Virus record (IMG/VR): IMGVR_UViG_2861295632_000001
Origin: a virus
Lineage: Duplodnaviria > Caudoviricetes
DNA length: 64,000 bases
Reading direction: 5' to 3' (one strand)
Shown here: positions 245-60,252 of the stretch, one piece after another
Numbering within the stretch: the first letter of the stretch is position 1
Layout: every line of letters starts with the position of its first letter
Translations under genes and position numbers: made by a program
Notes under the pieces: generated by a model
Seen by the model: only the letters and a program-made list of their open reading frames with translations
Databases searched by the model: none
What the model was told of the DNA's origin: nothing

Positions 245-768
245 GTACCCAGACCCCGACCGACCTGGCGCAGATCGACGCTAAGACCCTCGGCATGGCC
301 CGGCTGCTGGCCGCCCACCCCAACGCCCAGCGCGGCCTCCAGCGCAGCATCGAGCGGCAGCAGGAGCAGCGCGAAGCGCAGCGGACCCCCCGCCGGTTCG
401 CGGCGCCGATGGACTGCCCCCACTGCGGCGCTCCCGGCATCACCTACCTGACGCTGCCCACCAAGGACGGCCCGCGCGAGTTCAAGCGGAGGCCCATGGA
501 CTGCTGCCAGCCTGCTCTGCGCGACGCCGCCGAGAACGCGTTGCACTACGCGCTGAACCCCAACAACTGCGCGGAGGAGCGCGTGGAGGCCGCCGACCGT
601 TACGCGGCCCTGAAGGGGAGCATCACCGCCCCGGCGCTGCTGCGCGAGCTGGACACGCACGAGGCGCTGCTGGCGGATATCGAGGCCCGCGTCTCCGGCC
701 TGACCCGCGCCCAGGGTGGCGTGGAGTACGGGAACGGTGCCCAGAACCTGCGGCTGGTGCAGCCGTGA
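241..768 (+). CDS. hypothetical phage protein with possible Zn-binding CPHC...CC motif
   Basis: GGAG SD before the GTG; GTGA coupling at both ends. Confidence 0.7.
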   Translation: MSTQTPTDLAQIDAKTLGMARLLAAHPNAQRGLQRSIERQQEQREAQRTPRRFAAPMDCPHCGAPGITYLTLPTKDGPREFKRRPMDCCQPALRDAAENALHYALNPNNCAEERVEAADRYAALKGSITAPALLRELDTHEALLADIEARVSGLTRAQGGVEYGNGAQNLRLVQP

Positions 769-3700
769 GCCGCGCCCTCTCGCCCGAGGTGCAAGCCACG
801 CTGCGCGCCGCCACGATCAGCGAGGACGGCCTGACGCTGACCCTGGCCGGGGAACTCGACCGCAAGCTTTATCAGGCCACCGCCAAGGCTATCGAGGCGC
901 TGGGCGGCAAGTGGAACCGCAGAGCTCAGGCCCACCTGTTCACCAGCGACGTGCGCGACCTGCTGGCCGGGGTGCTCGACGGCGACGCGCTGCCCAAGAA
1001 GAACCCCCTGGCCTTCTTCGCGACGCCGGAGCCGCTGGTCGTCCTGATGCTGAACCTCCTGGGCGACGTGCGCGGCCAGCGCGTGCTGGAGCCGAGCGCC
1101 GGGGACGGCCACATCGCGGACGCGCTGCTGGAGGCGGGCGCCCTGGTGGACGTGATCGAACTCGACGACACCCGGCACGGCCACCTCATCGGGGCCGGGT
1201 ACCAACCGGTCGCCCGCGACTTTCTGGCCTTCACGCCGAGCGAGCGCTACCCCGTGATCGTCATGAACCCACCCTTCACTGCCGAGGGCGACGCCCAGGC
1301 CTACATCACCCACATTGAGCACGCCTGGGCGAACTGCCTCGCGCCGGGCGGGACCCTCGTCGCCATCGCGCCCAGCGGCTTCACCTTCCGCGAGGACCGG
1401 CGGGCGCAGGCCTTCCGCGCCCTGGTCGAGGAGCACGGCGAGTACAGCCCCAACGCCCAGAACGCCTTTGTCGAGAGCGGCACGGGCGTCCAGACCGTCA
1501 CCCTCTACATCCGCAAGCCCGCTCCCCCGCAGGAGGTTGCTATGCTCGTCCCCACCGAACAGGCCGCCAAGAACGCCCGTAAGAGCAGCAAGCAGGCCGC
1601 TGTCGCAGAGTCCAAGAAGCAACCCCAGGTCTTCACCGAGTACATGCCCGGCGACTTCGTGATCTGCGAGATCGGCGGGCAACCGATCAACAGCGGCATC
1701 ACGGGCCTCCACGTCGGCACCCCCCTGCGGTTAGACGTGGTGAACCGCAACGGCCCCAGCACCATCCCGCAGAACGCCATCACCTGCCGCGACGACTACT
1801 CGCCCGTCGCGCCCGTGCGGGTGGGGGACCTCGTGACCCTGCGGTTCCGCCAGGGGGAGCTGTTCAAAGTCGTCGAGCCTGCCGGGGCAGACGGGGTAGT
1901 GGAGCTGGAGAACATCGCCGCCCCCCAGGACCGGCCCTCCAGTCCACTCTCTGGCCTGCGCGTGACGCGGCGGGTGAACATCGCCGACCTCTACGCCGAC
2001 CTCAGCCTTCCCCTGCCCAGCTACCTGCAAGAGGCGGCCTCCAATGGTGTTGTCGTCGAGCCTGAGGTTGCCCCCGACCAGCCCGTCCCTGCGGAGTGGC
2101 TGGCCCAGCTGGAGGAGTGGCGCACTCGCTTCCACATCGGCGCCCGCGTCCGCTTCCCGGCGGCGAGCAGCACCGAGCCGGGCGCCGTGGAGGAGTTCGT
2201 GGGCGTCGTTGTCAGCCACGAGCCTGGGATCAGCGAGCACTGCACCGTGGACGAGGACGGACATAGCACCGTGGTGAAGTTCCGGAACCTTGCGCTCGAA
2301 GCTGCCCCCACTGAGGAACCTGCACTCGCCAGCGACCCGGCCCCAGCGTCAGCCACCCCCGACCTTCAGGCCCCCCGCCTCACCCCCGGCGCCATCGGCC
2401 TGCTGCTGGTGCCGCTGAGTCAAACCGTCCGCAGCAGTTGCAATGTCCGCAACCACTACGACCCGCAGGCCGTCGAGGAACTGGCGGCCAGCCTCGCGGC
2501 CGAGGGCCAGATCGAGAACTGCACCGGCCGCTGGAACGCCGAGGGCCAGGTCGAGATCGTGGCGGGTGAGACGCGCCGCCGCGCACAACTGCTGCGCGTT
2601 GAGCGAGGCGAGATCGGTGATGCCTACCCGCTGATGGTCCACATCCGCGAGATGACGGACGCCGAGGCGCTGGCTGTCAGCGCGACCGAGAACATGCGCC
2701 GCCGCTCCATGACCGCGCTGGAGGAGTGCGAGGCGATGCAGCGCCTCAACGACGCCGGGCGCAGTGTGGAGGAGATCGCCTCGATGTTCGGGTTCAAGAG
2801 CCTCCAGCCGGTGCATGACCGCATCCTCGTTGCGCGGAATTTGCACACCGCCGCCCGGGAGGCCCTTGACAAGGGCAACATCAGCTTCGCGCAGGCTGCC
2901 GTCATCGCCCGCGCCCCCGGCCAGCACCTTCAAGAGAGTTTGCTTCAGGCGGCCACCAGCTGGAACCCCACGAGCGCCAAGGGCTTGGCCGAAATGCTCA
3001 CACGCGGGCAGTTTCTGGTTGCCAATGCGAAGTTCGACGTGGAAGCCAGCGGGCTGGAAATCCGGCGCGACCTGTTCGACGCTTTTGCCCCCTACTTCGA
3101 GGACAAGGCAAAGGCGCTCGACGCACAGATCGCGTGGGCGCACGCCCGTGCGCAGGAGATTGAGAAAGACGGTGGGCAGGCGTTCGTCCATGTCGTGACT
3201 GGCGAGAACGGCAACTTCTACACGTCTGATCATCGCGCCTACGAGTACGTTGGCCCCAACGATCCAGCTGCGGGCACCATCGTTTACGTCAGCACCCTCT
3301 TCGGCACGAGCAGGGAGGAGCGGGCGAAGCTCCGCAGTAACGCTCAGGCCACAACAACAGAGGACGGTGGCACGAAGGTCGAGACGGTACGCCCCATGCG
3401 AGACAGTGCCTACCTGGAAGCGCACAAGCTCCGGGCCACCGCTGCCCGCGCCGCCGTCCTGGGTGACCAGCACCTTACCCTCGCCCTGACGGTGTGGGGC
3501 CTGATCATCGGCTCCACGAACGACGTGGTGCGGGTGAATCTCCAGCCGGTGAGCGCCGCGCACGAGATCCCCGAGCTGAAGGTCCGGGCAGAGGCGCTGG
3601 CGAACCTCCTGGCGCCCGACACCGACAGCGGGAGTGTGTACATCTCGGCGCTCGGCGCATCCGGCGTTCGCCCTGACCCCGAGCGGGTGCTGCGCCGGTT

Positions 3701-4091
3701 GGTGGCGATGAGCGACGACGAGCTGCTCGGGCACCTCAACACCCTGGCCTCGCTGACTGCCTACGACTGGTTCCAGTACGGCAACAAGACCCCGGCCAAG
3801 CCCGAGTACGCCTACCTCGCTTCCTTGACGGACGCACCGCAGCGCCTGGCCGCCAGCTTCCGCCTCACCGACGAGTGGCTCAAGCGCTACCCGCGCCACG
3901 AGCTGCTGGCCCTCGCGGACGAGGCGGGGCTAGGGCGAGCGCTGATTGAGGACTGCGGGACCTTGAAGGAGATGCGCGCCCGCCTGCTGGAGCACGCCGA
4001 CCGCCTGCACGCCGAGGGATTCGTGCCCGCGCTGGTGCGCTTCCCAGAGCCGCCTGCGACCGCTGACGCCACCGCGACTGCCGCCGACTGA
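765..4091 (+). CDS. SAM-dependent amino (N6-adenine-type) DNA methyltransferase fused to a ParB/Spo0J-family domain
   Basis: Motif I VLEPSAGDG and motif IV MNPPF in the first ~260 aa; later ParB signature NVR...VEELAASL...EIVAGETRRRA...ENMRRRSMTALEE followed by an HTH. Confidence 0.85.
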   Translation: MSRALSPEVQATLRAATISEDGLTLTLAGELDRKLYQATAKAIEALGGKWNRRAQAHLFTSDVRDLLAGVLDGDALPKKNPLAFFATPEPLVVLMLNLLGDVRGQRVLEPSAGDGHIADALLEAGALVDVIELDDTRHGHLIGAGYQPVARDFLAFTPSERYPVIVMNPPFTAEGDAQAYITHIEHAWANCLAPGGTLVAIAPSGFTFREDRRAQAFRALVEEHGEYSPNAQNAFVESGTGVQTVTLYIRKPAPPQEVAMLVPTEQAAKNARKSSKQAAVAESKKQPQVFTEYMPGDFVICEIGGQPINSGITGLHVGTPLRLDVVNRNGPSTIPQNAITCRDDYSPVAPVRVGDLVTLRFRQGELFKVVEPAGADGVVELENIAAPQDRPSSPLSGLRVTRRVNIADLYADLSLPLPSYLQEAASNGVVVEPEVAPDQPVPAEWLAQLEEWRTRFHIGARVRFPAASSTEPGAVEEFVGVVVSHEPGISEHCTVDEDGHSTVVKFRNLALEAAPTEEPALASDPAPASATPDLQAPRLTPGAIGLLLVPLSQTVRSSCNVRNHYDPQAVEELAASLAAEGQIENCTGRWNAEGQVEIVAGETRRRAQLLRVERGEIGDAYPLMVHIREMTDAEALAVSATENMRRRSMTALEECEAMQRLNDAGRSVEEIASMFGFKSLQPVHDRILVARNLHTAAREALDKGNISFAQAAVIARAPGQHLQESLLQAATSWNPTSAKGLAEMLTRGQFLVANAKFDVEASGLEIRRDLFDAFAPYFEDKAKALDAQIAWAHARAQEIEKDGGQAFVHVVTGENGNFYTSDHRAYEYVGPNDPAAGTIVYVSTLFGTSREERAKLRSNAQATTTEDGGTKVETVRPMRDSAYLEAHKLRATAARAAVLGDQHLTLALTVWGLIIGSTNDVVRVNLQPVSAAHEIPELKVRAEALANLLAPDTDSGSVYISALGASGVRPDPERVLRRLVAMSDDELLGHLNTLASLTAYDWFQYGNKTPAKPEYAYLASLTDAPQRLAASFRLTDEWLKRYPRHELLALADEAGLGRALIEDCGTLKEMRARLLEHADRLHAEGFVPALVRFPEPPATADATATAAD

Positions 4092-9013: not shown

Positions 9014-9688
9014 ATGTCCAGGAGCCACATAGACCACGGCGCGCACGGCTTCACTGTTCTGGCGCTCATGGAGGAGATGACCCGCTCTGGTCAGGACATG
9101 ATCACAGCGCAGGATCTGCTGCAATACCGGACTCTTCCCAGGCTCTCCGTTGAGGACGTCGAATATCTGATGAAATTCTTGCTGGGCTTCGGCTGGCTCT
9201 CCGACCGGGACAGCGACTATGAAACGAGCATCTATCGCGTCACGCCAAGCGGAAAGCAAATGGTCTGGTACTGCAATTCAAACGGGCGAATAGCCCTTGA
9301 ATTTCCAAGCCCCAACCTGCCTGCTACGCAGGTTAATGTCGGGCAAGGTGCGCAGGCTCCGTTTCAGATGGCTATGAACACGGGCTCTGGAACGATTTAC
9401 GCCACGCAGACCAATCACATAGGCCCAGAACAACAGGCGCGTGTGCTGGAGTTGCTAGATAAGCTGTCGGCGATCCTCGAACGCATGGAGCCGAACACAG
9501 ACCGGGATGTAGCTTCTACAGTGCTGAGTACGCTCCAAAACGCTGCCAAGGCGGGCGCGTGGGAACAGGTCAAAGCGCGCGCCAACGCCCTTATGACAAC
9601 CGTGGCTCTGGTTTCGAGCATCGGCGCCGATGGGCCAGAAGCCTACGCCTTGGCACAAAGCATCTTCCAGGCAGTCACTGGGGCTTGA
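9014..9688 (+). CDS. moron: lower-GC hypothetical protein, possibly with a winged-helix N-terminus
   Basis: Visible GC drop; TAAACT 6 nt before the ATG and no SD; YRVTPSGK wing-like motif. Confidence 0.65.
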   Translation: MSRSHIDHGAHGFTVLALMEEMTRSGQDMITAQDLLQYRTLPRLSVEDVEYLMKFLLGFGWLSDRDSDYETSIYRVTPSGKQMVWYCNSNGRIALEFPSPNLPATQVNVGQGAQAPFQMAMNTGSGTIYATQTNHIGPEQQARVLELLDKLSAILERMEPNTDRDVASTVLSTLQNAAKAGAWEQVKARANALMTTVALVSSIGADGPEAYALAQSIFQAVTGA

Positions 9689-9750
9689 CAAAACGCCCCC
9701 CAAATTCGCCTAATTCTGCTCAGACTGCACGCCGTCTACCCTGAACCCAA

Positions 9751-9778
9751 CGCCTCCGCCTACGCGGGGGCGCTTTTC
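9751..9778 (+). terminator. intrinsic terminator-like hairpin
   Basis: CGCCTCCGC-ctac-GCGGGGGCG then CTTTTC. Confidence 0.55.
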
Positions 9779-9886
9779 GTTCCGGGCCACCGTGCCGTCT
9801 GCCGCCCACCGCCGGAGGTGCCCGCCATGAAGCGCTGAACCTCTTCCCTCTTCTCGCCACACACAACCTGAGAGCAGCACCCGAAA

Positions 9887-9919
9887 CCGCGCACGCCTGA
9901 GGGCTGGGCGGCTTTTCTT
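9887..9919 (+). terminator. second terminator-like hairpin in the late leader
   Basis: Imperfect CCGC..GCC/GGC..GCGG stem then CTTTTCTT. Confidence 0.4.
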
Positions 9920-10068
9920 GGCCCTCAGAACGAGGAGCGGCCCGGACGCGGCGCACTCACCTCACAGGACGTGACCGCGGCCTTCAGGGCGGATCCATCC
10001 GGGAGTATCGCTGCCTTCTCCGGGCAGGCATCAGCGGCTGGCCCAGGGCCGAAAACCTGGGCACCCCT

Positions 10069-10160
10069 GCGCCCCGCCGAGCAGGCACGCCGCCGCGCCG
10101 CCCAACCTCCAGGGCACAGCGGACCGGCTCACCCGGTGACAACTCCGGGAGGGCGCACCA
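10069..10160 (+). ncRNA. tRNA-like structured element (non-canonical)
   Basis: GCGCCC...GGGCGC acceptor-like stem ending in ACCA; adjacent 5-bp arm CCCGG-TGACAACT-CCGGG; 92 nt; no canonical TTC loop or D-arm. Confidence 0.3.
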
Positions 10161-10274
10161 CCGGGCCGCAGGACTCCCCTGCCCCACGACCACCTCAAGA
10201 CGCCGCTGCCCCCTTGGGCAAATCCTTGCGCGTCGCCCCGCTGTCTACCCTGGTGGACACGGGCTGGAGCATGT

Positions 10275-11069
10275 ATGGCACCACGTAAGAACCCCGCCCC
10301 GGCCGACACCGCCCTGCGGATCGAGTACCTCCCGCTCGACCAGCTCGCCCGCTGGCCCGGCAACCCCAAGGAGCACGCCGACGGTGCCATCGCCGCCAGC
10401 ATCGCCCGCTTCGGCTTCCGCGACCCCCTCGCCATCGACGAGACGACCGGTCGCCTGATCGCCGGGCACGGCCGCCTCTCGGTGCTGGAGCGCGCCCACG
10501 CCGCAGGCAGCCCGCCTCCCCAGTTCGTGCAGGTCCGCGAGGACGGCATGTGGCTGGTGCCGGTCACGCGCGGCGGCAGTTTCGGCAGCGAGGACGAGGC
10601 CGCCGCCTACCTGGTCGCCCACAACCGCACCGGCGAACTCGGCGGCTGGAACGACGAACTGCTCAGGGGGATGCTGGGCAACCTCGACGACGACCTGCGC
10701 GCCGTGGCAGGCTTCGACCTCGCCGCCTTCGTGCAGGAGACGGACGCAGCAGCCGCGAGTGCCCCCGCCCTTCCGGAACCGCCTTCGGAGTTCCTGAACG
10801 ACCTGATCGGCGGAGCGGCAGCGCCGCAGGCGCAGGCCTCCCCCACCCCGGCGGCGGGAGGTGACGCGGCCCCTGCCGAGCCTGCGCCTCCCGCATCTGG
10901 AGGGCCAGGCGGCCCCGAGTACGTGCAGGTCGTGTACGTGGTGCCTGCGCCGGACCGTGACCTCGCGCAGAAGGCCGTGAAGCAGGCCCGCGAGCAGTTC
11001 GGCGTGGCGACCGCGCCCGAGGCCTTCATGGCGATCATCCGCGCCTATCTGAACGAGGTGACCGCGTGA
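10275..11069 (+). CDS. ParB/Sulfiredoxin-like N-terminal domain protein
   Basis: NPKEH...IAASIARFGFRDPL..D..GRLIAGHGRL...AHNR..ELGGWN; Pro/Ala linker; small C-terminal domain. Confidence 0.85.
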   Translation: MAPRKNPAPADTALRIEYLPLDQLARWPGNPKEHADGAIAASIARFGFRDPLAIDETTGRLIAGHGRLSVLERAHAAGSPPPQFVQVREDGMWLVPVTRGGSFGSEDEAAAYLVAHNRTGELGGWNDELLRGMLGNLDDDLRAVAGFDLAAFVQETDAAAASAPALPEPPSEFLNDLIGGAAAPQAQASPTPAAGGDAAPAEPAPPASGGPGGPEYVQVVYVVPAPDRDLAQKAVKQAREQFGVATAPEAFMAIIRAYLNEVTA

Positions 11070-11806
11070 GCCCCGATCCGATGAAGGCCCACCCCGACGA
11101 CGAGAACGAGATCCACGACATCGCCGCGTTCGTGGACCCAGCGCGGAACGTCGTCACGCCGGTCATGCAGCTGAGCGAGGAGCTGGCCGGGCAGCTCGTG
11201 TGGGCCTTCGCCCGCATCGTGCGCGCCGCCCACGGCAGCCGCGCCGCCCGCACCCCCGACGAGGACGGCATCACCCGCGCCCAGGAGTTCGAGGAAGGGG
11301 ACGTGTACATGCTGGAGAGGCCCTTCGACGGGTACTTCGCCAGTCGCTACCTGATGGACTTCTACAACGTCGAGGAGCGCGGCATCTGCTCGCGGATGCA
11401 CCTGCACACTGGGCTGAGGTTCGTGCGGATGATGACCGGCCCCGGCACCACGATCCGGGTGGGCAGCCTCAGCCCCTTCCTCGTCACCAACGTGCCCGGC
11501 GTGACGCCCTTCATCCCCTTCCAGTTCGAGGACGAGCTGCCCGACCTGCCCCAGGGCGTGGAGCGCACCCGCTACAACCTGCTGGTGCCGCCGAACAGCT
11601 TCGTGGACATGCAGATCCCGCGCGGCGTGTCGCACCAGTTCAACGCCATCGGCCCGAACGCGGTGATCGACTCCGTACACCCGGAAGAGTCCATCGAGAC
11701 GTTCCGCGAGCGCATGTCCGGGTTCAAGATGCTGGCCCAGACGATCTTCCTGACAGAAGACCGTCCCGACGCCAGCAATTGCTCGGACCTCAGGGAAGAG
11801 GAATGA
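11066..11806 (+). CDS. cupin-fold putative metalloprotein
   Basis: Cupin motif 1 SRMHLHTG and motif 2 IPRGVSHQF; GTGA/ATGA coupled. Confidence 0.7.
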   Translation: MSPDPMKAHPDDENEIHDIAAFVDPARNVVTPVMQLSEELAGQLVWAFARIVRAAHGSRAARTPDEDGITRAQEFEEGDVYMLERPFDGYFASRYLMDFYNVEERGICSRMHLHTGLRFVRMMTGPGTTIRVGSLSPFLVTNVPGVTPFIPFQFEDELPDLPQGVERTRYNLLVPPNSFVDMQIPRGVSHQFNAIGPNAVIDSVHPEESIETFRERMSGFKMLAQTIFLTEDRPDASNCSDLREEE

Positions 11807-12594
11807 CGGCGCCCACCATCCCCCGCAAACAGGTGTCCAGTCAGCAGGCCTGGCTCGACACCTGGGCACGGGTGGAAGACCTCTGCCCACCCGCCCAACT
11901 GGACGCCCTGATCGAGCACACCCTGGCCGAGATGCGCGCGCAGTTCAGCGGGCGGCAGGTGGCGTTCGCCTGGAGCGGCGGCAAGGACTCGCTGGTCGTG
12001 GAGTGGCTGTGCGACCAGCTCGGCACCGAGGCCTGCGTGTTCGGCATGACCAACCTCGAGTACCCGGAGTTCCTCGCCTGGGTCACCGACCACATGCCGC
12101 CCGGCGTGCAGGTGATCAACACCGGCCAGGACCTCGCGTGGCTGGCGAGGAACCCGCAAATGCTCTTCCCGCAGCGCGCGCAGGACAACGCCCGCTGGTT
12201 CCGGGTGGTGCAGCACACGGCGCAGCGGCGGTACTTCCAGGAGCACCAGCTCGACGTGCTGGTGCTGGGCCGCCGACACGCGGAAGGCAACTTCTGCGGC
12301 GCGGGCGGCCTCTACCGCAACCGCGAGGGCATCACACGCTACAGCCCGATTCGGGACTGGTCCCACGAGGCCGTGCTCGCCCTGATCAAGCGCGAGGGGT
12401 ACAGCCTCCCGCCGATCTACGGGTACCCACGCGGCTGGCAGGTCGGCACCGGCTGCTGGCCGCAGCGCCTGTACACCAAGAGCCAGCAGCAGGGCTGGGA
12501 CGAGACCTGGGAGATCGACCCGGACATCGTTCGTCAGGCAGCCACGGTGCTGCCCCAGGCCCGCGACTACCTGCACGCCCGGGGGCTGACGTGA
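11803..12594 (+). CDS. PAPS-reductase-family (PP-loop) protein
   Basis: AWSGGKDS, LGRRHAE, SPIRDWS, GTGCWP; ATG at 11803 overlaps the upstream stop. Confidence 0.88.
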   Translation: MTAPTIPRKQVSSQQAWLDTWARVEDLCPPAQLDALIEHTLAEMRAQFSGRQVAFAWSGGKDSLVVEWLCDQLGTEACVFGMTNLEYPEFLAWVTDHMPPGVQVINTGQDLAWLARNPQMLFPQRAQDNARWFRVVQHTAQRRYFQEHQLDVLVLGRRHAEGNFCGAGGLYRNREGITRYSPIRDWSHEAVLALIKREGYSLPPIYGYPRGWQVGTGCWPQRLYTKSQQQGWDETWEIDPDIVRQAATVLPQARDYLHARGLT

Positions 12595-13253
12595 TGTGCG
12601 GCCTGTACGGCTTCTGGCGCAGCGGCGGCCCGCCGGAGGCGGACAGGTTGCGCGGCCTGGCCCTGCGCGCGGGCACACGCGGCCCCCACGCCCATGGACA
12701 CGCCACGCAGGGAGGACGCCACGTGGCGCTGGGGCCGGTGGCGCTCTCGCCCTTGTCCACCGTGGTGGAGAGCGTGATCGGCCACGCAAGGCTGGCGACC
12801 GCTGGAGCACACGACGACCTCGCCTGCGCGCAGCCCTTCCAGGTGGGTCCGCTGTTCGTGGCCCACAACGGCACCGTGCCGGGAGCCTCCGCGCTGGCCG
12901 CCCGGCACGGCCTGAACCCGGCGACCGCCAGCGACAGCGAGGTCCTGGCGCTGCTGCTGACCCGCACCGACCTGCGTGCAGGCGTGGCCACCCTGCTCGA
13001 CACACTGGCGCCGGGCGTGCCGCTCGCGCTGCTGGTGCTGACCGAGGACGGTCAGGTGGTCGCTGCCCGGCGAGGTCACCCCCTGCACGCGCTGACCCGA
13101 GAAGAAGGCACCTACCTGTGCAGCCTGCCCTTTCCGGGGAGCATGCCGCTGCCCGACGCCACGGTGACGGTGTACGGCTCGGGCGAGCAGTACCCGCTGG
13201 CCACCACGGCGCATCTGCGCCGCCATCAGGGAGGCCCGCAGTGGACCCCCTGA
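12594..13253 (+). CDS. class II (Ntn) glutamine amidotransferase, stand-alone
   Basis: Starts MCGLYG (catalytic Cys2) at a TGATG overlap; RGPH, GHARLAT, QPF, HNG, SDSE. Confidence 0.88.
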   Translation: MCGLYGFWRSGGPPEADRLRGLALRAGTRGPHAHGHATQGGRHVALGPVALSPLSTVVESVIGHARLATAGAHDDLACAQPFQVGPLFVAHNGTVPGASALAARHGLNPATASDSEVLALLLTRTDLRAGVATLLDTLAPGVPLALLVLTEDGQVVAARRGHPLHALTREEGTYLCSLPFPGSMPLPDATVTVYGSGEQYPLATTAHLRRHQGGPQWTP

Positions 13254-14581
13254 TGCGCGAGGACGTCGCCGGGGACGTGTCCGCGCCCCACCCGGGCCTG
13301 AAGCCCTTCAAGTACAACCCGAAGAACAGCCGCCTGAAGGCCGAGGACAGCGACCAGGACGTGCTGACCCTGGCCCGCGAGCGGATGCGCGCCCTGTTCG
13401 AACGCTTCGACCACGTGTCGGTGAGCTTCAGCGGCGGCAAGGACTCCACCGTCGTCCTCAACCTGGCGCTGGAGGCCGCCCGCGAACTCGGGCGCACCCC
13501 GCTCGACGTGGTGTTTTACGACGAGGAGTGCATCTACACCGAGAACATCGACTACGTGCGCCGGGTGGCCGCCGACCCGGACGTGGCCCTGCGCTGGGTG
13601 TGCGTGCCGGTCAAGCACCGCAACGCCTGCTCCAGCGAGTCGCCCGTGTGGTACCCCTGGGCGCCGGAGGACCGTCACCTGTGGGTGCGGGAGCTGCCGC
13701 AAGAGGCGATCACCGAGATCCCGGGGTACGACCACGCGGACCCGGCCACCCGCCTGAGCATTCCCGAGGTGAGCGGCCTGCTGTTTCCGCCCACCCTCGG
13801 CAACGTGGTGCAGCTGCTGGGCATCCGGGCCGACGAGAGCCTGATCCGCCGGGCCGCCGTGAGCCGCCGGGTGGTCGACAACTACATCATCAAAGACCGG
13901 GGCGGCTACGGCGGAGCCAACGACGTGCAGCACGCCGGGAATGTCTGGAAGGCCTACCCGATCTACGACTGGCGCACCGAAGACGTGTGGTTGGCGCCCA
14001 AGCTGCTGGGCTGGGATTACTGCCGGGTGTACGACCTGCTCGACCAGATCGGGTTCACGCCGGGCAAGCAACGGCTGGCGCCCCCGTTCGGCGAGGAGCC
14101 GATGCAGCGCCTCGACCAGTACCACCAGTGCGAGCCTGCGCTGTGGGACCGGATGCTGGCCCGGGTGCCCGGCGCGCAGACGGCCAAGCGCTATTCCCGG
14201 ACGGAGCTGTACGCCTTCGGGGAGATTCCGGACAAGCCGCACGGCATCACCTACGAGGCCTGGTTGCGGGACCTGGTGACCTCCAACTTCCCCGAGAAGG
14301 AAGCCCAGGCCGTCAGCAAGAAGATCCGCGCGCACTTGCGGATGCACTACCGCAAGACGGCGGACGCGCTGGCCCCGCACGTGGACCATCCGCTCACTGG
14401 CTACTCGTGGACCTTCTTCGTGAAGATGGCCATGCGGGGGAACTTCAAGGACCGTCGTCAGCCAGCCTTGGGCCGCCGCACTCCTGAGCAGTTCCAGAAA
14501 GACCTCGCGAAGTACCGCGCCGACCTCCAGCGCTATCAGGGCGAGCTGGCGGAGGCCCGCGCCCTCCTAGGAGACCAATGA
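13241..14581 (+). CDS. IbrA/YbdN-like PAPS-reductase-family protein (DUF3440 type)
   Basis: SFSGGKDS, FYDEE, GIRADES..R, YPIYDW..EDVW, EP.LWDRM..RVPG; GTG 13241 after GGAGG (alternative ATG 13253). Confidence 0.88.
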   Translation: MDPLMREDVAGDVSAPHPGLKPFKYNPKNSRLKAEDSDQDVLTLARERMRALFERFDHVSVSFSGGKDSTVVLNLALEAARELGRTPLDVVFYDEECIYTENIDYVRRVAADPDVALRWVCVPVKHRNACSSESPVWYPWAPEDRHLWVRELPQEAITEIPGYDHADPATRLSIPEVSGLLFPPTLGNVVQLLGIRADESLIRRAAVSRRVVDNYIIKDRGGYGGANDVQHAGNVWKAYPIYDWRTEDVWLAPKLLGWDYCRVYDLLDQIGFTPGKQRLAPPFGEEPMQRLDQYHQCEPALWDRMLARVPGAQTAKRYSRTELYAFGEIPDKPHGITYEAWLRDLVTSNFPEKEAQAVSKKIRAHLRMHYRKTADALAPHVDHPLTGYSWTFFVKMAMRGNFKDRRQPALGRRTPEQFQKDLAKYRADLQRYQGELAEARALLGDQ

Positions 14582-15096
14582 ATCACGGCCGCGATGCCCA
14601 ACCCCTGTCACGGATCGAGTGGGTCCACCGCGACGACCTGCACGCCAACGGGTACAACCCCAACCACGTCGCCAAGCCGGAGATGGACCTGCTCAAGACC
14701 AGCCTGTTCGAAGACGGCTGGACACAGCCCATCGTGGCGAGGCCCGACGGTGAGATCGTGGACGGCTTCCACCGCTGGACCTGCAGCGGCGACCCGCGCA
14801 TCTACGCGATGACTGATGGGTACGTGCCGGTGGTGCGCCTGCTGCCGCCCGCGACCGGCGACCAGATGCTCAGCACCATCCGGCACAACCGGGCCAGGGG
14901 CGAGCACGGCGTGCTGCCGATGGCGGACATCGTGCGCCGCCTGATTGACGAGGAGGGGCTGACCCCTGAGCAGGTGATGGTGCGCTGCGGCATGGAGAAA
15001 GAAGAAGTCACCCGCCTGTATGACCGAGGCGGGATGACGGTAAGGGGAACGCAGGGGCGAACTCAGTTCAGCAACGGGTGGAAGCCTAGTAGCTAA
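14578..15096 (+). CDS. IbrB/YbdM-like ParB-family protein
   Basis: ANGYNPNHVA.PEM.LL..S...DGWTQPIV, EIVDGFHR, STIRHNRARGEH. Confidence 0.9.
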   Translation: MNHGRDAQPLSRIEWVHRDDLHANGYNPNHVAKPEMDLLKTSLFEDGWTQPIVARPDGEIVDGFHRWTCSGDPRIYAMTDGYVPVVRLLPPATGDQMLSTIRHNRARGEHGVLPMADIVRRLIDEEGLTPEQVMVRCGMEKEEVTRLYDRGGMTVRGTQGRTQFSNGWKPSS

Positions 15097-15626
15097 CGAT
15101 GGTTTTCCGGGTGAACTGCGGCCTGCCTCAGTGCCTCCAGATCATCAGCCGACAGCGCCTCACCCGTTGTTCGGCGCTGCCCGTACTCATCCAGCATGCG
15201 CTGATAGCGAGCGCGCGTTGGGCCATGACTGTTCGGGAACCGGCCGTTTCGGAGGAACATGGCGTAAATGCTGTCCTCTTCACGGGCAGCAAATCCCGCG
15301 AAGCTAAGAAGGCGGCTCTCGTTATTGCCATCAAATCCAATGAACCGAAGGGCGAAGTTCTCTTGGGCGGCGAGATCGATGCTGTGCGCCTCGACCGCAT
15401 CGTGAATGGCCACGTACATGTCCAGCACGTCGTATACAAACTCCGATTCTTCGGCGGGAATGGCGTCTGGATCAATGCTCGTGAACAGTTCGTCGTATAG
15501 GGCCTCGTAGCCCCGGGTGACGATTTGTTCCATGCGCTCGTAGTGCTCCTTTTCCTCGGGTTCCAAGGCTGCAAGGATTCGGAAATTCTGCATCAGCATC
15601 AGCCGTTCCAGCTTCGTCAACTCCAT
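15093..15626 (-). CDS. YfbU-family protein (moron)
   Basis: ELTKLERLML.QNFRIL...GYEALY, V.DVLDMY, F.GFDGNNE, NSH.P....Y.RML; GGAGGTG SD; lower GC. Confidence 0.85.
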   Translation of the reverse strand: MELTKLERLMLMQNFRILAALEPEEKEHYERMEQIVTRGYEALYDELFTSIDPDAIPAEESEFVYDVLDMYVAIHDAVEAHSIDLAAQENFALRFIGFDGNNESRLLSFAGFAAREEDSIYAMFLRNGRFPNSHGPTRARYQRMLDEYGQRRTTGEALSADDLEALRQAAVHPENHR

Positions 15627-15697
15627 AACGCACCTCCACCCTGACTATGCCAGGGGGAGGCACTAAAAACTCACGCAAAAGAGGAGGTGACCTACCC

Positions 15698-16267
15698 ATG
15701 ACCAAACGTGCCCCCGCCAAGCCCGAGACAAATCCGAAAAAGAAGAGCAGCAGCGGGGCGCGCAGCGCCGAAGACAAGCGCGTCAAGCACGACTGGAGCG
15801 CCATCCGCCGCGAGTACATCCGGGGGGACGACACCGTCACGCTGGCCAGCCTCGCCGCCACACCGGGCTACCCGAGTGAGAGGCAGCTCGAACGCCGATC
15901 CAGCGCGGAAGATTGGCCCGACCTGCGCCTCCAGATGCGTCGGGAGGTTGACGGGAAGCTGCGCGCCCTCGACCTCGACATGAAGACCGAGGTGCGTCGG
16001 CGGCAGCTGAAGGTCGGAACGGCCCTGATCACGCTGGGGGTCCGCGCCATGGCGCACCAGGACCCGGAGAAGATGGATACGCTCGACATGTCCCGTGTCA
16101 TCAAGATCGGCGGGGAGCTGGAGCGCAAGGCCCTGGGCATGGACGAGCTGAACATCAACTTCGGCCGCATCAAGTCCCCGGACGACCTCGACAAGTTCAG
16201 CGAGGAAGAGCTGTGGCGCATCGCGGGGATGCTGCCACCCGACGAAGATGACGACGAGGAGTTCTAG
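15698..16267 (+). CDS. terminase small subunit (putative)
   Basis: AGGAGGTG SD; DWSAIRREYI.G HTH-like start; directly upstream of the large terminase. Confidence 0.75.
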   Translation: MTKRAPAKPETNPKKKSSSGARSAEDKRVKHDWSAIRREYIRGDDTVTLASLAATPGYPSERQLERRSSAEDWPDLRLQMRREVDGKLRALDLDMKTEVRRRQLKVGTALITLGVRAMAHQDPEKMDTLDMSRVIKIGGELERKALGMDELNINFGRIKSPDDLDKFSEEELWRIAGMLPPDEDDDEEF

Positions 16268-18116
16268 CCGCCCGCCCGGCTGGATGACGCGGCAGCACGC
16301 CCTGCAAGCCATCGCCCGCAAACGCCTGCGCGACAGCGGCAAGCTTCCCGAGCAGCAGCCCCAGCGCGACGAGCAGAGCCGCTGGACCGAGCGCTACGGC
16401 ACCGACCTGATCGGCTTTTGCGAGCGCGTCCTCGGCATAAAGCCCTGGAAAGGCATGAACGGCAAGCCGGGCCAGTACGAGATCCTGGAGGCGATTCAGG
16501 ACAGCGTGCGGCGGCAGCTCGCGGGCGAGCAGAACGTCCCGTTCATCTTAGTGATCGAGGCGGCCCACGGCGTCGGCAAGACGTACGGGATCGGCGCCCC
16601 CCTGATCGCCTGGTTCTACCGCTGCTTCGCGCCGTCGGTGATCCAGTCCACCGCGAACACCAACGACCAGGTGCGCGACACCCTCTGGAAGAACATCCGC
16701 ATGCACGTCGCCAACGCCAAAGCGCGGCGGCGTAACGTCATGCCCGGCCTGCTGCCCCGCGACATGCGCGCCGAGCAGAGCGCCGACCACTTCGCCATGG
16801 GCTTCGTCACGAACGACGCGGGCGGGACGGGCACGGAGCGCGTGCAGGGCCAGCACAACGACTTCCACCTGTGGGTCTTCGAGGAAGCCGAGGGTATCGC
16901 GGAGTTCATGTACGACGCGGTCAAGCGCCAGTTCACCGGCAACACCGTCCGCATCTGGCTGCTCTACGCCAACCCGAAGACCAGCGCCAGCACCTTCCAG
17001 GAGATGAAGCTGCACCCGCTGGCCCTGGTCTTCCGCCTCTCGCTGCTCGATTTCCCGAACGTCTGGGGCGGGACCAACGAGGTCCCGGGCGGCACCGACC
17101 GGACCACCTTCAACAACTGGATCGAGGACCAGCGGACCTTCGGGTGCGAGGTGGTGCCCGAGCTGGACGAGACGCGCCACACCTTCCAGGTTCCCTGGGA
17201 CGTGCCGAAGGCGGGGGGCGGTGTCCACCCGGCGGGCACGATCTTCGCCCCGAAGCGTGGCTTCCTCTACGGCGCCCTGGGCGTCCCGCCGAGCGGAGGC
17301 GGCGGGGACACTTTCATCAGCGCGGGCCGCTTCGACGCCTGCCTGACCCGCGAGGTGGTGCCCGCGCCCCTGCTGGAACCGGCAGACCCGGTCGGCGATC
17401 AGGTGCAGCGCCAGATCTGGGCTGGACAGATCGGGGTGGACTGCTCACGCTTCGGGGACGACGCCGGGACGATCTACTCCCTGGCCCGGCGGGTGCTGCG
17501 CTTCGAAGAAGCCATCCAGGGCGCGCAGGAGCTGGACGAGATCGGCCGCACCGACCGCTACGTGCAGGCGGTCGCCAAGGCCGCCCGGCGCCTGGCTGCC
17601 CAGGGCATCACACGCCTGAGCATCCGCGTGGACGCCGGATACGGCGGCGGCATCGTGGACGGCCTGCGCAAGCTCACAGACCTCGCCGCCCTCTTCCCGG
17701 ACGGCTTCGTGGTGCACGAGGTCGCCTTCGGCAGCGTGCCGAGCGACCCCGACCAGTACGCCGACCTGGTGACCGAGATGTACGCGCTGACCGACGAGGT
17801 GCTCAGCGCTGTCCGCATCGACAAGGCCACGCTGCCGCTGCTGCTCAAGCGGGATCTGGTCGAGCGCAAGTACGGCTACGTCACGCGCCGTGACCGAGAT
17901 GTCCGAAAGCTGGAGAAGAAAAGCGACTTCAAGAAACGCACCAAGGGGCAAAGCCCCGACGACGGCGACGGCGCAGTCCTGGCCCTCGCCCCCGAGCGGC
18001 TGTTCCAGAGGCCCGGCCGCCACGATCCCGCTGCCGAGGCAGCAGCATCCCTGACCGTGCAGTCCGGGCAGGACACCGAAGGAGGTGAGTACAACGACGT
18101 TTATTCTTGGTCCTGA
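16248..18116 (+). CDS. terminase large subunit
   Basis: Walker A AAHGVGKT, Walker B LWVFEEAEG, coupling motif YANP, RNase H-like GVDCSRFGDD and SPDDGDG. Confidence 0.92.
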   Translation: MTTRSSSRPPGWMTRQHALQAIARKRLRDSGKLPEQQPQRDEQSRWTERYGTDLIGFCERVLGIKPWKGMNGKPGQYEILEAIQDSVRRQLAGEQNVPFILVIEAAHGVGKTYGIGAPLIAWFYRCFAPSVIQSTANTNDQVRDTLWKNIRMHVANAKARRRNVMPGLLPRDMRAEQSADHFAMGFVTNDAGGTGTERVQGQHNDFHLWVFEEAEGIAEFMYDAVKRQFTGNTVRIWLLYANPKTSASTFQEMKLHPLALVFRLSLLDFPNVWGGTNEVPGGTDRTTFNNWIEDQRTFGCEVVPELDETRHTFQVPWDVPKAGGGVHPAGTIFAPKRGFLYGALGVPPSGGGGDTFISAGRFDACLTREVVPAPLLEPADPVGDQVQRQIWAGQIGVDCSRFGDDAGTIYSLARRVLRFEEAIQGAQELDEIGRTDRYVQAVAKAARRLAAQGITRLSIRVDAGYGGGIVDGLRKLTDLAALFPDGFVVHEVAFGSVPSDPDQYADLVTEMYALTDEVLSAVRIDKATLPLLLKRDLVERKYGYVTRRDRDVRKLEKKSDFKKRTKGQSPDDGDGAVLALAPERLFQRPGRHDPAAEAAASLTVQSGQDTEGGEYNDVYSWS

Positions 18117-57665: not shown

Positions 57666-57831
57666 GCGGTGTAGGGGCGGCAAGCCTCGGACAACACGAG
57701 CCGTTTTGGCCCCCTCTCGCCCCAGCCGAAACCGAGAGGGTCGGTCGTTTTTTGCGCTTGAGACGATGTTTTACCATACGGTGGGCAAATATGTAAACTC
57801 ACATTACGAACTGCGTTACTGTAGGAACATA

Positions 57832-60122: not shown

Positions 60123-60252
60123 CGACCACGTGAGTCGGAGGCTTGGCTGGCAAGGGGACAGGTTACCCACAGGGTTGCGACGCGCCCCCTGCATCCAGCT
60201 CGACTTCGCACCTCTCGTGTACAGCCCGCATGGCTCAGGGTACCCTTCCTCC

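What the first reader, a model, noticed from the sequence alone, without database searches (positions are those of the whole stretch)
10275..15096. Six-gene ParB-cupin-PP-loop-amidotransferase-IbrA-IbrB operon before the terminase: candidate undescribed phage DNA-modification system
Seen: six genes with overlapping start/stop codons (GTGA 11066, ATGA 11803, TGATG 12594, 13241/13253, ATGA 14578), in backbone-like GC, heading the late region directly before terS/terL. They encode two ParB/Srx domains, two SGGKDS PAPS-reductase-family proteins, a metal-binding cupin and an Ntn amidotransferase with Cys2 intact. Known: IbrA/IbrB (YbdN/YbdM) occur as a biochemically uncharacterised pair. PAPS-reductase-family enzymes (DndC, SspD) act in DNA phosphorothioation. 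Phage ParB-like genes beside terminase often accompany DNA-modifying enzymes. Inference: the extra cupin, second PP-loop enzyme and ammonia donor suggest a multi-step pathway (ATP activation, then amination/amidation, possibly oxidation) that modifies a base or the backbone of packaged DNA as anti-restriction. I do not know of a described system with this gene set.
Basis: partly seen in the sequence, partly recalled or inferred. Interest (0 to 1): 0.88.

Follow-up and report, generated by a model that had tools for sequence, protein, structure and literature searches.

The report
Phage ParB/PP-loop operon with glutaminase, cupin
A Deinococcus prophage starts its packaging region with six overlapping genes, a common but functionally unstudied phage set of DNA-binding-type and ATP-activating enzymes plus an ammonia-releasing enzyme and a metal enzyme, which probably modifies a nucleic acid chemically, though nothing here proves that.

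Summary
The six genes are real, overlap as described and carry the claimed domains. One correction: a minus-strand YfbU gene lies between gene 6 and terS.

The set is not a fixed six-gene system. A core of short PAPS-reductase-like PP-loop enzyme (g3), ParB-like protein, IbrA-like enzyme (g5) and IbrB-like ParB (g6) recurs upstream of terminase. Of 62 g3-selected viral loci with enough flank, 61 have g5 and g6. The glutaminase g4 (6 of 62) and cupin g2 (2 of 62) are add-ons.

In Deinococcaceae, g2, g3 and g5 lie contiguously in the same 13 of 125 species genomes, and 11 of those also have g4. g4 keeps Cys2 in 15 of 15 copies. It sits between g3 and g5 in 9 of 12 g4-selected viral loci.

The window's IbrA belongs to a Cys-poor clade in which every locus has g2 and/or g4. 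In 61 of 75 other (mostly actinobacterial) loci, g2 lies near an asparagine-synthase-like amidotransferase with no ParB or IbrA.

Best reading (about 0.4): ParB-guided, ATP-dependent adenylation followed by amide-nitrogen transfer, probably on phage DNA. Membership of the phosphorothioation, 7-deazaguanine and CysH families was tested and not met. My paper searches found no functional study of this gene set. I rate it a new variant of a known, uncharacterised kind.

The parts
10158..10270 (+). Conserved non-coding stretch directly upstream of g1, with an imperfect palindrome at about 10235-10262. Possible regulatory site of the operon; function not tested.
   Evidence: 76-90% nucleotide identity to the same position in 7 of 8 other Deinococcus loci compared. 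No Rfam match in 9400-16400. Terminator-like hairpins further upstream at 9751-9772 and 9894-9910.
10275..11069 (+). g1: ParB/Srx-like protein, 264 aa, of the kind also found as the N-terminal domain of phage DNA methyltransferases.
   Evidence: phrog_723 E 1.4e-26, phrog_620 2.8e-26, phrog_498 (DNA methyltransferase) 2.9e-22 over g1 residues 12-152. PADLOC MTase_II 1.8e-10 over residues 15-72. No Pfam hit.
11066..11806 (+). g2: divergent cupin, 246 aa, with three invariant His (H112, H114, H190). About 70% identical between Deinococcus, Actinomycetota and Bacteroidota.
   Evidence: phrog_28683 E 5.6e-141. 472 relatives at E<=0.001. Alignment A1. AF2 pLDDT 82.8. Foldseek PDB and BFVD top hits are cupins.
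11803..12594 (+). g3: short (263 aa) PAPS-reductase-family PP-loop ATP pyrophosphatase (WSGGKDS).
   Evidence: PF01507 40 bits. phrog_424 E 1.3e-26. 649 relatives. 779 cluster representatives at E<=0.001. 427 viral stretches.
12594..13253 (+). g4: stand-alone class-II (Ntn) glutamine amidotransferase/amidohydrolase, 219 aa, with Cys2.
   Evidence: GATase_6 39.6 bits. phrog_14519 E 2.2e-41. PDB sequence hits PurF and EgtC at E about 2e-5. M/V-C-G start in 15 of 15 copies. Invariant C2, R29, G30, R66, T69, N92, G93, D114.
13241..14581 (+). g5: IbrA-like protein, 446 aa (442 aa if it starts at ATG 13253), PAPS_reduct + DUF3440, of the Cys-poor clade.
   Evidence: PF01507 43.5 bits and PF11922 44.1 bits. 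phrog_2302 E 1e-100. AF2 pLDDT 79.1. Foldseek hits: FAD synthase/FMN adenylyltransferase, APS/PAPS reductases, CysD. Cysteine pattern. Clade.
14578..15096 (+). g6: IbrB-like ParB/Srx protein, 172 aa, with invariant D62-G63-x-H65-R66 and N104-R-A-R-G108-x-H110.
   Evidence: phrog_2159 E 3.4e-67. Pfam ParB_N 18.8 bits, under the cut-off. Invariants in 59 sequences.

Best explanation
The six genes are one transcription unit at the head of the packaging/late region of a Deinococcus prophage. They are a clade-specific elaboration of a widespread phage module made of a short PAPS-reductase-like PP-loop enzyme (g3), a ParB-like protein (g1 type), IbrA (g5) and IbrB (g6).

Proposed mechanism. Every step below is inferred unless marked shown.
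1. The ParB/Srx-fold proteins g1 and g6 hold the enzymes on a nucleic acid, most likely replicated phage DNA about to be packaged.
2. A PP-loop enzyme (g3 and/or g5) uses ATP to adenylate an oxygen of the target and releases PPi.
3. The glutaminase g4 hydrolyses glutamine with Cys2. The catalytic residue set is shown to be conserved. The ammonia displaces AMP and leaves an amide, amidine or phosphoramidate-type nitrogen.
4. The three-His cupin g2 makes or tailors the substrate or product by a metal-dependent step.

In the larger Cys-rich IbrA clade, which mostly lacks g4 and g2, the incoming atom may be a different one. The presumed benefit is protection of virion DNA from host nucleases.
For: Operon structure: overlapping stop/start codons at all five junctions.

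Core synteny: of 76 non-duplicate viral loci chosen by g3, 62 have at least 3.2 kb downstream. 61 of those 62 have both g5 and g6 and 1 has g5 only. terL is detectable downstream in 30.

Gene between g3 and g5: a roughly 200-aa gene fills the gap. A profile of 47 such proteins hits g1 (E 4.7e-7, against a set of ten proteins). 2 of 10 gap ORFs tested gave weak Pfam ParB_N hits (1 of the 10 was a g4-type GATase).

Isolated phages: FP_Taranis has ParB / IbrA / IbrB between a RinA-like activator and terS/terL.

Deinococcaceae: g2, g3 and g5 are contiguous in the same 13 of 125 genomes, and g4 is present in 11 of these.

g4 placement: it lies between g3 and g5 in 9 of 12 g4-selected viral loci, namely all those with E<=1e-15. 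It keeps Cys2 in 15 of 15 copies and the invariant R/N-G/D set.

Independent recurrence of the same logic: g2 lies near an AsnB-like enzyme (GATase_7 + Asn_synthase, which is a glutaminase plus a PP-loop synthetase) in 61 of 75 other loci, and directly downstream of it on the same strand in 45.

Fold of g5: its PP-loop domain matches enzymes that put AMP on a phosphate or sulfate oxygen (FMN adenylyltransferase, CysD) and APS/PAPS reductases.

Precedent: PAPS-reductase-domain proteins with ATP pyrophosphatase activity modify the DNA backbone in Dnd, Ssp and BREX type 4 (PMC12914056, passages). DpdB is described as a ParB-like ATPase needed for base insertion into DNA (PMC12839542, passage).

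g1-type ParB domains match the N-terminus of phage DNA methyltransferase families (phrog_498, PADLOC MTase_II).
Against: - No call tested the substrate. DNA is inferred from the ParB partners and the gene position only.
- The other (mostly actinobacterial) g2 + AsnB-like loci have no ParB or IbrA within 10 kb, and conserved neighbours there look membrane-associated. So the cupin's substrate need not be DNA.
- In two Streptomyces loci g2 follows an IleRS-like gene, an AMP-binding enzyme, a carrier protein and a GNAT-like gene. That is a small-molecule context.
- g4's nearest solved relatives include EgtC, an amidohydrolase that releases glutamate from a substrate rather than feeding ammonia to a synthase.
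- No fused g4 + PP-loop protein was found (weak evidence). No informative g3 fusion was found among 150 representatives.
- 2 of 13 Deinococcus genomes, and viral loci L006-L009, have g2 without g4. The module therefore works without the glutaminase.
- The link between Cys-poor IbrA and g2/g4 rests on one clade (22 tips, support 1.0), which is one evolutionary event.
- E. coli carries ybdNM on the chromosome under a LysR repressor, with no phage context (PMC9068703, passages).
Confidence: 0.4

Rival explanations
1. Small-molecule or nucleotide chemistry. The enzymes g2, g3, g4 and perhaps g5 make or destroy a soluble metabolite, such as a modified nucleotide, an aminoacyl-adenylate-like compound or a signalling nucleotide used by host defence. 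The ParB-fold proteins act as NTP-binding/hydrolysing or regulatory subunits, not as DNA guides.
For: g2's commonest partners outside phages are adenylate-forming enzymes without any ParB: AsnB-like in 61 of 75 loci, and IleRS-like + AMP-binding + carrier protein + GNAT-like in L033 and L041. The g5 fold matches FMN adenylyltransferase and CysD, which act on small molecules. g4 resembles EgtC and PurF, which act on small molecules.
Against: Two or three ParB-fold genes accompany the PP-loop enzymes in almost every phage locus. The module keeps its place just upstream of terminase across GC 0.39-0.71. No transporter or further biosynthetic genes lie in the operon.
Confidence: 0.2
2. Regulation or packaging accessory. 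IbrA/IbrB-type pairs act as co-activators of prophage late genes, or the ParB-like proteins act as nucleases or site-binding factors for terminase. The PP-loop domains would then sense or hydrolyse ATP without modifying DNA.
For: The module lies at the start of the late region, after a RinA-like activator in FP_Taranis and before terS/terL, and in the same position in the window. Database annotations call these genes 'co-activator of prophage gene expression IbrA/IbrB'. The original genetic report on E. coli ECOR-9 is recalled, not seen. A conserved palindromic element lies just upstream of g1.
Against: The catalytic signatures are strictly kept: SGGKDS in 71 of 71 IbrA sequences, the PP-loop in g3 and Cys2 in g4. 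A regulator does not explain a glutaminase and a metal cupin. Terminases of many unrelated families follow the module (terL was detectable with the window's terL in only 30 of 62 loci).
Confidence: 0.15
3. RNA modification. The PP-loop enzymes adenylate a base carbonyl of tRNA or another RNA, as TilS, ThiI, TtcA and TtuA do, and nitrogen from g4 replaces the oxygen. The result retunes translation late in infection.
For: The profile of g3 has weak PDB sequence matches to TtuA (E 0.04-0.1) and GMP synthase (E 0.03) as well as PAPS reductases. g5 fold hits include NcsA, LarE and MesJ/TilS at E about 1e-3. A glutaminase with a PP-loop enzyme is the logic of GMP synthase (recalled).
Against: No RNA-binding domain (THUMP, PUA and the like) was found in any of the six proteins. 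ParB/Srx partners are known from DNA systems. The best fold matches are to the PAPS reductase/FMNAT/CysD branch, not to the tRNA enzymes.
Confidence: 0.1
4. Phosphorothioation of phage DNA (Dnd/Ssp/BREX-4/Tdp-like), using host sulfur carriers.
For: A PAPS-reductase-family enzyme beside a ParB-fold (DndB-like) protein. g5 gives weak DndC/BrxP model hits. The larger IbrA clade has 4-5 conserved cysteines.
Against: Scores are far below cut-off (TIGR03183 26.5 vs 290.4; PADLOC DndC 24.8 and BrxP 21.8 bits). No P-loop ATPase, which PMC12914056 (passages) treats as required, and no cysteine desulfurase among the six genes. The window's g5 keeps only C121 of five Cys columns. g3 has no universally conserved Cys. 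A glutaminase points to nitrogen, not sulfur.
Confidence: 0.05
5. Auxiliary sulfur metabolism: the PAPS-reductase-like genes boost host sulfate assimilation (CysH-like), as virome papers usually annotate them.
For: Pfam PAPS_reduct hits. Papers list such phage genes as host metabolism (PMC11318856 and PMC12323421, passages).
Against: The CysH equivalog NF002537 scores 17.6 bits against a cut-off of 154 for g5 and does not hit g3. No ECG(L/I)H-type C-terminal motif is visible in either translation (the motif is recalled). The constant ParB partners and the terminase-proximal position do not fit a metabolic gene.
Confidence: 0.03

Closest known systems
IbrA/IbrB (E. coli YbdN/YbdM-type pair; phage genes annotated 'co-activator of prophage gene expression')
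   Same: g5 has PAPS_reduct + DUF3440 and is followed by a small ParB/Srx-fold protein (g6), as in this pair. IbrA-like genes occur in 223 of 50,697 phage records, many next to terminase.
   Different: Here the pair sits in one operon with a second PP-loop enzyme, a second ParB, a glutaminase and a cupin. The window's IbrA belongs to a Cys-poor clade. The biochemical function of the pair is unknown in every paper I could search.
DndB-DndC, SspD, BrxP and TdpC DNA phosphorothioation enzymes
   Same: A PAPS-reductase-fold ATP pyrophosphatase acting with a ParB-fold protein. Activation of DNA by adenylation is reported for Tdp (An et al. 2025, seen only as a reference entry in PMC12914056).
   Different: No DndA, DndD/SspC/BrxC or DndE. 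Model scores are an order of magnitude under cut-off. There is no cysteine cluster. A glutaminase is present instead of a sulfur donor.
7-deazaguanine DNA modification (Dpd; phage DpdA with Gat-QueC)
   Same: A class-II glutaminase domain + a PP-loop enzyme + a ParB-like ATPase is also the parts list there. DpdB is described as a ParB-like ATPase in a PMC12839542 passage. Gat-QueC is recalled, not seen.
   Different: No DpdA/TGT in the window: the only TGT of the genome is on another contig. The PP-loop proteins are PAPS_reduct, not QueC. I did not search for preQ0 synthesis genes (FolE, QueD, QueE); none appeared among the window ORFs I scanned.
Asparagine synthetase B-type amidotransferases
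   Same: An Ntn glutaminase supplies ammonia to a PP-loop domain that has adenylated an oxygen. g2's partner in 61 of 75 other (mostly actinobacterial) loci is such a fused enzyme.
   Different: In the window the two activities are separate genes (g4, g3/g5), and the PP-loop domain is of the PAPS-reductase family, not Asn_synthase.
Phage lambda NinC
   Same: A short phage PAPS-reductase-family protein listed as non-essential in the literature column, function not given there (PMC10695390, table passage).
   Different: Not shown here to be an orthologue of g3. tblastn of g3 against 50,697 phage records found only one metagenomic record. NinC lies in the nin region, not by the terminase.

Membership tests
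IbrA/IbrB-type pair | One protein with PAPS_reduct (PF01507) followed by DUF3440 (PF11922) | tested here: met
   g5: 43.5 bits (cut-off 22.5) and 44.1 bits (cut-off 25); phrog_2302 E 1e-100.
IbrA/IbrB-type pair | Adjacent small ParB/Srx-fold partner | tested here: met
   g6 overlaps the g5 stop. phrog_2159 E 3.4e-67. Pfam ParB_N only 18.8 bits, under the 26.3 cut-off.
IbrA/IbrB-type pair | Activates expression of prophage genes (the phenotype that named the pair) | not testable with these tools
   Needs genetics. The original report is recalled, not read.
DNA phosphorothioation (Dnd/Ssp/BREX-4) | DndC/SspD/BrxP-type enzyme above the model cut-off | tested here: not met
   TIGR03183 26.5 bits vs 290.4. 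PADLOC DndC 24.8 and 22.7 bits, BrxP 21.8 bits, each over short stretches.
DNA phosphorothioation (Dnd/Ssp/BREX-4) | P-loop NTPase partner (DndD/SspC/BrxC), required according to PMC12914056 (passages) | tested here: not met
   None of the six proteins matches such a family in Pfam, NCBIfam or PADLOC.
DNA phosphorothioation (Dnd/Ssp/BREX-4) | Sulfur-handling cysteines or a cysteine desulfurase | tested here: not met
   The window's g5 has 1 of the 5 Cys columns found in the Cys-rich clade. g3 has no universally conserved Cys. No desulfurase in the operon.
7-deazaguanine DNA modification (Dpd / phage DpdA) | TGT-family transglycosylase DpdA | tested here: not met
   PF01702 finds one gene in the whole genome, on contig C19 and outside the window.
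Class-II (Ntn) glutamine amidotransferase | Cys directly after the initiator Met, with the family domain above cut-off | tested here: met
   M/V-C-G start in 15 of 15 copies. GATase_6 39.6 bits vs 27. Invariant R66, N92-G93 and D114; their catalytic roles are recalled from PurF/GlmS.
Class-II (Ntn) glutamine amidotransferase | Physical coupling to a synthase that takes the ammonia | not testable with these tools
Only the gene order g3-g4-g5 is shown.
Cupin superfamily | Double-stranded beta-barrel fold with the two His-containing motifs | tested here: met
   Foldseek top PDB and viral hits are cupins (prob 1.00, E 5e-5 to 1e-3; TM about 0.3). An HxH motif and a P-x-G-x-x-H-x-x-N motif are invariant. 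No Pfam cupin model hits.
Assimilatory PAPS reductase (CysH) | Equivalog-level score | tested here: not met
   NF002537 17.6 bits vs 154 for g5; no hit for g3.

The most novel reading that the evidence does not exclude
The operon installs a nitrogen-for-oxygen substitution directly on polymerised phage DNA. A PAPS-reductase-fold enzyme held on DNA by ParB proteins adenylates a backbone phosphate (as reported for phosphorothioation) or a base carbonyl. Glutamine-derived ammonia from g4 then displaces AMP, giving a phosphoramidate linkage or an aminated base, and the three-His cupin tailors it. That would be a DNA modification chemistry not yet described in any virus or cell. The Cys-rich and Cys-poor IbrA clades would then be sulfur and nitrogen versions of one machine.
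Probability: 0.12. Interest if true: 0.92.

Novelty: new variant of a known kind. Interest (0 to 1): 0.62.

Why it matters
IbrA-like "PAPS reductase" genes sit next to the terminase in many cultured phages. I found them in 223 of 50,697 records, including Flavobacterium, Mycobacterium and Streptococcus phages. Related genes occur in hundreds of uncultured viral contigs (427 stretches for g3).

The papers I could search list them as sulfur-metabolism helper genes or leave them open, and none tests a function. This work shows three things:
- They belong to a fixed module with ParB-fold partners.
- The module exists in a Cys-rich form and a Cys-poor form.
- The Cys-poor form recruits a glutaminase and a cupin.

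This gives a chemical hypothesis (ATP activation, then nitrogen transfer) and a tractable model in a non-pathogenic, genetically workable genus.

If the target is DNA, this would be a new anti-restriction modification. If it is not, a common virome annotation still needs correcting.

Separately, the cupin family (about 70% identity across three phyla, always beside adenylating enzymes) is an unexplained, strongly constrained enzyme that deserves study on its own.

Tried and rejected
1. DNA similarity of the whole operon to 50,697 phage records gave only short ParB/IbrB pieces.
2. tblastn against phage records: g4 gave no match and g3 gave one metagenomic record.
3. Search for fused forms of g4 (longer proteins): none at E<=0.001. 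The tool itself calls this weak evidence.
4. Profile search of g3 against 1.84 billion representatives gave 779 hits, and nearly all of the 150 listed are stand-alone proteins of about 260 aa. Five longer ones were scanned. None had a ParB, GATase or cupin domain, and one is a chimera with Phage_Mu_F. So there is no fusion evidence.
5. PDB sequence searches: the g2 profile gave 0 hits. g5 gave only LarE at E 0.028.
6. Lasso-peptide reading of g2's AsnB-like neighbour: rejected. The lasso cyclase model scores 110 bits against a cut-off of 525. The best matches are generic asparagine-synthase-type amidotransferases, all under cut-off.
7. Rfam on 9400-16400: nothing. The sigma-70 promoter scan found none.
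8. tRNA scan of the window: none.
10. ESM Atlas for g2 gave only its own cluster and cupin leads.
11. I considered the correlation between Cys-poor IbrA and g2/g4 as evidence of a chemistry switch. I downgraded it because the Cys-poor proteins form one clade.

Rows dropped before counts:
- In one search, L092, L093, L094 and L096 (same contigs as L002-L005), L091 and L172 (GenBank records) were left out.
- In the same call, 14 loci with under 3.2 kb after g3 were set aside. All 12 of them that had room for it show g5.
- In some searches, hits covering under 60% of the query, or with stops or X, were dropped.

Supplementary files of papers were not asked for. Supplements of PMC12914056 and PMC13551039 may list phage PAPS-reductase neighbourhoods that bear on novelty.

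Full report
OBSERVATION

The window is high-GC DNA (about 0.64-0.73). The nearest relatives of its genes are in Deinococcus.

Six + strand ORFs run from 10275 to 15096. I checked all five junctions and all overlap: GTGA at 11066; ATGA at 11803; TGATG at 12592-12596; the g4 stop at 13251-13253 against a g5 start at GTG 13241 or ATG 13253; ATGA at 14578.

Upstream lies a 586-bp non-coding stretch with two terminator-like hairpins (9751-9772 and 9894-9910). Its last 110 bp or so (10158-10270) are 76-90% identical in 7 of 8 other Deinococcus loci and hold an imperfect palindrome.

A YfbU-family gene on the minus strand (15093-15626; Pfam E 8e-32, NCBIfam 101 bits over the cut-off of 90) separates g6 from terS (15647), terL (16248) and portal (18085).

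WHAT THE SIX PROTEINS ARE

- g1 (264 aa) is ParB-like by PHROG only (phrog_723 E 1.4e-26). It also matches the N-terminal part of a phage DNA methyltransferase family (phrog_498 E 2.9e-22; PADLOC MTase_II E 1.8e-10). Pfam finds nothing.
- g2 (246 aa) has no Pfam or NCBIfam family but matches phrog_28683 at E 5.6e-141. With a 31-sequence alignment AlphaFold gives pLDDT 82.8. Foldseek's significant PDB hits are all cupins: sugar isomerase, oxalate decarboxylase, quercetinase and thiol dioxygenases. The best is E 5e-5 at probability 1.00, though TM is only about 0.3. The viral library gives the same picture. An H-x-H motif (H112, H114) and a P-x-G-x-x-H-x-x-N motif (H190) are invariant. The Glu of the classical first cupin motif (recalled) is not evident, so I read the site as three-His. 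I could not inspect coordinates.
- g3 (263 aa) is a short PAPS-reductase-family PP-loop protein (PF01507 40 bits; WSGGKDS).
- g4 (219 aa) is a class-II glutaminase-type protein (GATase_6 39.6 bits; phrog_14519 E 2.2e-41). Its nearest solved relatives by sequence are PurF and the amidohydrolase EgtC (E about 2e-5).
- g5 (446 aa) is IbrA-like (PAPS_reduct + DUF3440; phrog_2302 E 1e-100). In its model (pLDDT 79.1), Foldseek aligned about 230-290 columns to FAD synthase/FMN adenylyltransferase, APS and PAPS reductases and CysD (E 4e-6 to 1e-4). I infer that these cover the N-terminal PP-loop domain. The DUF3440 part found no match.
- g6 (172 aa) is IbrB-like (phrog_2159 E 3.4e-67). D-G-x-H-R and N-R-A-R-G-x-H motifs are invariant in 59 sequences.

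RECURRENCE

Among 125 species genomes of the family, g2 is found in 13, g3 in 13, g5 in 14 and g4 in 11. The same 13 genomes hold g2, g3 and g5 at contiguous coordinates. The two without g4 carry a g3 of only 54-55% identity. The fourteenth g5 is a distant 35% copy in another genus. These prophages are kin, so the count shows linkage, not independent events.

The wider picture comes from 80 viral contigs found with the g3 profile, out of 427 matching stretches. After removing 4 contigs already held, 76 remain and 62 of these have at least 3.2 kb after g3. Of those 62:
- 61 have both g5 and g6 downstream, and 1 has g5 only.
- The order is g5 then g6 in 51, and g6 then g5 in 10.
- g4 is present in 6 and g2 in 2.
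- A terL detectable with the window's terL follows in 30.

These contigs span GC 0.39-0.71. Between g3 and g5 there is nearly always a gene of about 200 aa. A profile of 47 distinct copies hits g1 (E 4.7e-7 against a set of only ten proteins, with alignment over both conserved ParB blocks). 2 of 10 gap ORFs gave weak Pfam ParB_N hits (1 of the 10 was a g4-type GATase). I read this gene as a probable g1-type ParB.

Isolated phages show the same core without g3. Faecalibacterium phage FP_Taranis has ParB / IbrA / IbrB between a RinA-like activator and terS/terL. Phage vB_RanS_PJN03 has ParB / ParB / PAPS reductase before terL. IbrA-like genes occur in 223 of 50,697 phage records, all under 60% identity to g5.

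THE TWO ADD-ONS

Glutaminase g4. A g4-first search gave 12 viral loci. The 9 with E<=1e-15 all have g4 between g3 and g5 (inverted in L177 and L181, as in L114). The 3 weakest (E 3e-14 to 6e-8) have no g3 or g5 nearby. All 15 copies start M/V-C-G. C2, R29, G30, R66, T69, N92-G93 and D114 are invariant in 9 aligned sequences.

Cupin g2. It is about 70% identical between Deinococcus, Nocardia/Streptomyces and Riemerella/Bergeyella. Of 90 g2-selected loci, the phage-type ones carry the PP-loop/ParB genes. The 75 loci L016-L090 are nearly all actinobacterial (L032 is Bergeyella). In those 75:
- None except L032 has any g1 or g3-g6 relative within 10 kb.
- 61 have a 575-aa asparagine-synthase-like protein (GATase_7 + Asn_synthase) within 5 kb.
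- In 45 that protein is directly upstream on the same strand.

In Streptomyces loci L033 and L041, g2 follows an IleRS-like gene, an AMP-binding enzyme and a GNAT-like gene; a carrier-protein ORF was called only in L033.

So g2 has settled, in separate settings, beside enzymes that activate a substrate with ATP, and twice beside the pair "Ntn glutaminase + PP-loop". That is the strongest hint to the chemistry. It also warns that the cupin's substrate need not be DNA.

TWO IbrA CLADES

Five alignment columns are Cys in most IbrA sequences. The pattern CCCCC occurs in 33 of 71 sequences, and 48 have at least three of the five. The window and all other high-GC copies keep only C121. These 22 Cys-poor sequences form one clade with support 1.0.

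Every Cys-poor locus has g2 and/or g4. Cys-rich loci have neither, except L129 (g4), and L001 and L032 (a distal g2). g3 has no universally conserved cysteine. Because this is one clade it counts as one event. It still argues against an Fe-S or persulfide sulfur-transfer mechanism in the window's version.

MECHANISM

What is shown:
- A tightly coupled operon.
- Intact PP-loop and Ntn-glutaminase signatures.
- Constant ParB-fold partners.
- Constant position ahead of the packaging genes.

What is inferred:
1. The ParB proteins tether the enzymes to phage DNA.
2. g3 and/or g5 adenylate an oxygen.
3. Ammonia from g4 replaces AMP.
4. g2 tailors the substrate or product.

Precedents:
- PAPS-reductase-domain proteins with ATP pyrophosphatase activity in Dnd, Ssp and BREX type 4 (PMC12914056, passages read).
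- The adenylated DNA intermediate of Tdp (An et al. 2025, seen only as a reference entry there).
- DpdB as a ParB-like ATPase for base insertion into DNA (PMC12839542, passage).

I give this reading about 0.4. Rivals are a small-molecule or nucleotide pathway (0.2), a regulatory or packaging accessory role (0.15), RNA modification (0.1), phosphorothioation (0.05) and sulfate assimilation (0.03).

COMPARISON WITH KNOWN SYSTEMS

The g5/g6 pair meets the sequence definition of IbrA/IbrB. Three other memberships fail:
- Phosphorothioation systems: DndC models score 22-27 bits against cut-offs near 290; there is no P-loop ATPase, no desulfurase and no cysteine cluster.
- 7-deazaguanine systems: the only TGT-family gene of the genome lies on another contig.
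- CysH: 17.6 bits against a cut-off of 154.

The system works like a split asparagine-synthetase-type amidotransferase but is not a member of that family.

LITERATURE

I ran eight searches. Where phage PAPS-reductase/ParB genes are mentioned they are either listed as host-metabolism genes or left open:
- PMC11318856 and PMC12323421 (passages) list them as host-metabolism genes.
- PMC13551039 (passage) suggests anti-defence DNA modification. It cites a phage PAPS reductase that evades Dnd. I could not identify that reference. PMC12345140 (abstract read) concerns a kinase/shutoff protein instead.
- E. coli ybdNM is known only as a CitR-repressed operon (PMC9068703, passages).
- Lambda NinC is listed as a PAPS-reductase-family protein, non-essential in the literature column (PMC10695390, table passage).

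I found no paper describing the gene set with a glutaminase and a cupin. Subscription journals and supplements were not searchable.

VERDICT

This is a new variant, carrying a glutaminase and a cupin, of a known but functionally uncharacterised phage module. Interest is 0.62.

Noticed in passing
window 765-4091 (+): A 1108-aa protein with a methyltransferase-like N-terminal part (phrog_15406, phrog_6263 and phrog_799 DNA methyltransferase; Pfam MTS just under its cut-off) and a ParB_N domain at residues 550-644. This is a third ParB-fold protein in the same prophage, here fused to a putative DNA-modifying domain.
   Followed up: partly
window 15093-15626 (-): A YfbU-family gene on the opposite strand, wedged between g6 and terS. 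A 32% relative sits at the same place in one other Deinococcus viral contig (L003/L093/L175). The g6-terS gap varies from about 60 bp to 2 kb among relatives, so it looks like an insertion hotspot.
   Followed up: partly
window 10158-10270 (+): A conserved non-coding element with an imperfect palindrome just before the g1 start codon, 76-90% identical in 7 of 8 related loci. No Rfam family matches.
   Followed up: partly
L016-L090 (genome contigs, mostly actinobacterial), around position 10001 of each: A recurrent chromosomal cassette outside phages: an unknown protein with zinc-ribbon-like Cys pairs and hydrophobic stretches (52 of 75 loci), a roughly 160-aa protein with a hydrophobic segment and an acidic tail (39 of 75), an asparagine-synthase-like amidotransferase (61 of 75), and the g2 cupin. 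Flanking genes differ between loci. Its function is unknown.
   Followed up: partly
L033 3768-10732 and L041 (Streptomyces): Here g2 is the last gene after an IleRS-like synthetase paralogue, an AMP-binding enzyme and a GNAT-like protein (a carrier-protein ORF was called in L033 only). This looks like a small biosynthetic cluster.
   Followed up: no
L119/L180 9379-13561; L007, L009, L114: Tandem IbrA paralogues: three in a row in L119, two in L007, L009 and L114. All are of the Cys-poor clade and are about 45-51% identical to g5.
   Followed up: no
L114, L177, L181: The glutaminase gene lies between g3 and g5 but on the opposite strand in three mid-GC viral contigs.
   Followed up: no
window 57595-61215: A low-GC stretch (0.527 at 58-60 kb against about 0.7 elsewhere), flanked by a DUF5131 phage protein (57595-58572) and an Mrr_cat restriction endonuclease gene (60604-61215). 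This may be a prophage end or a defence islet.
   Followed up: no
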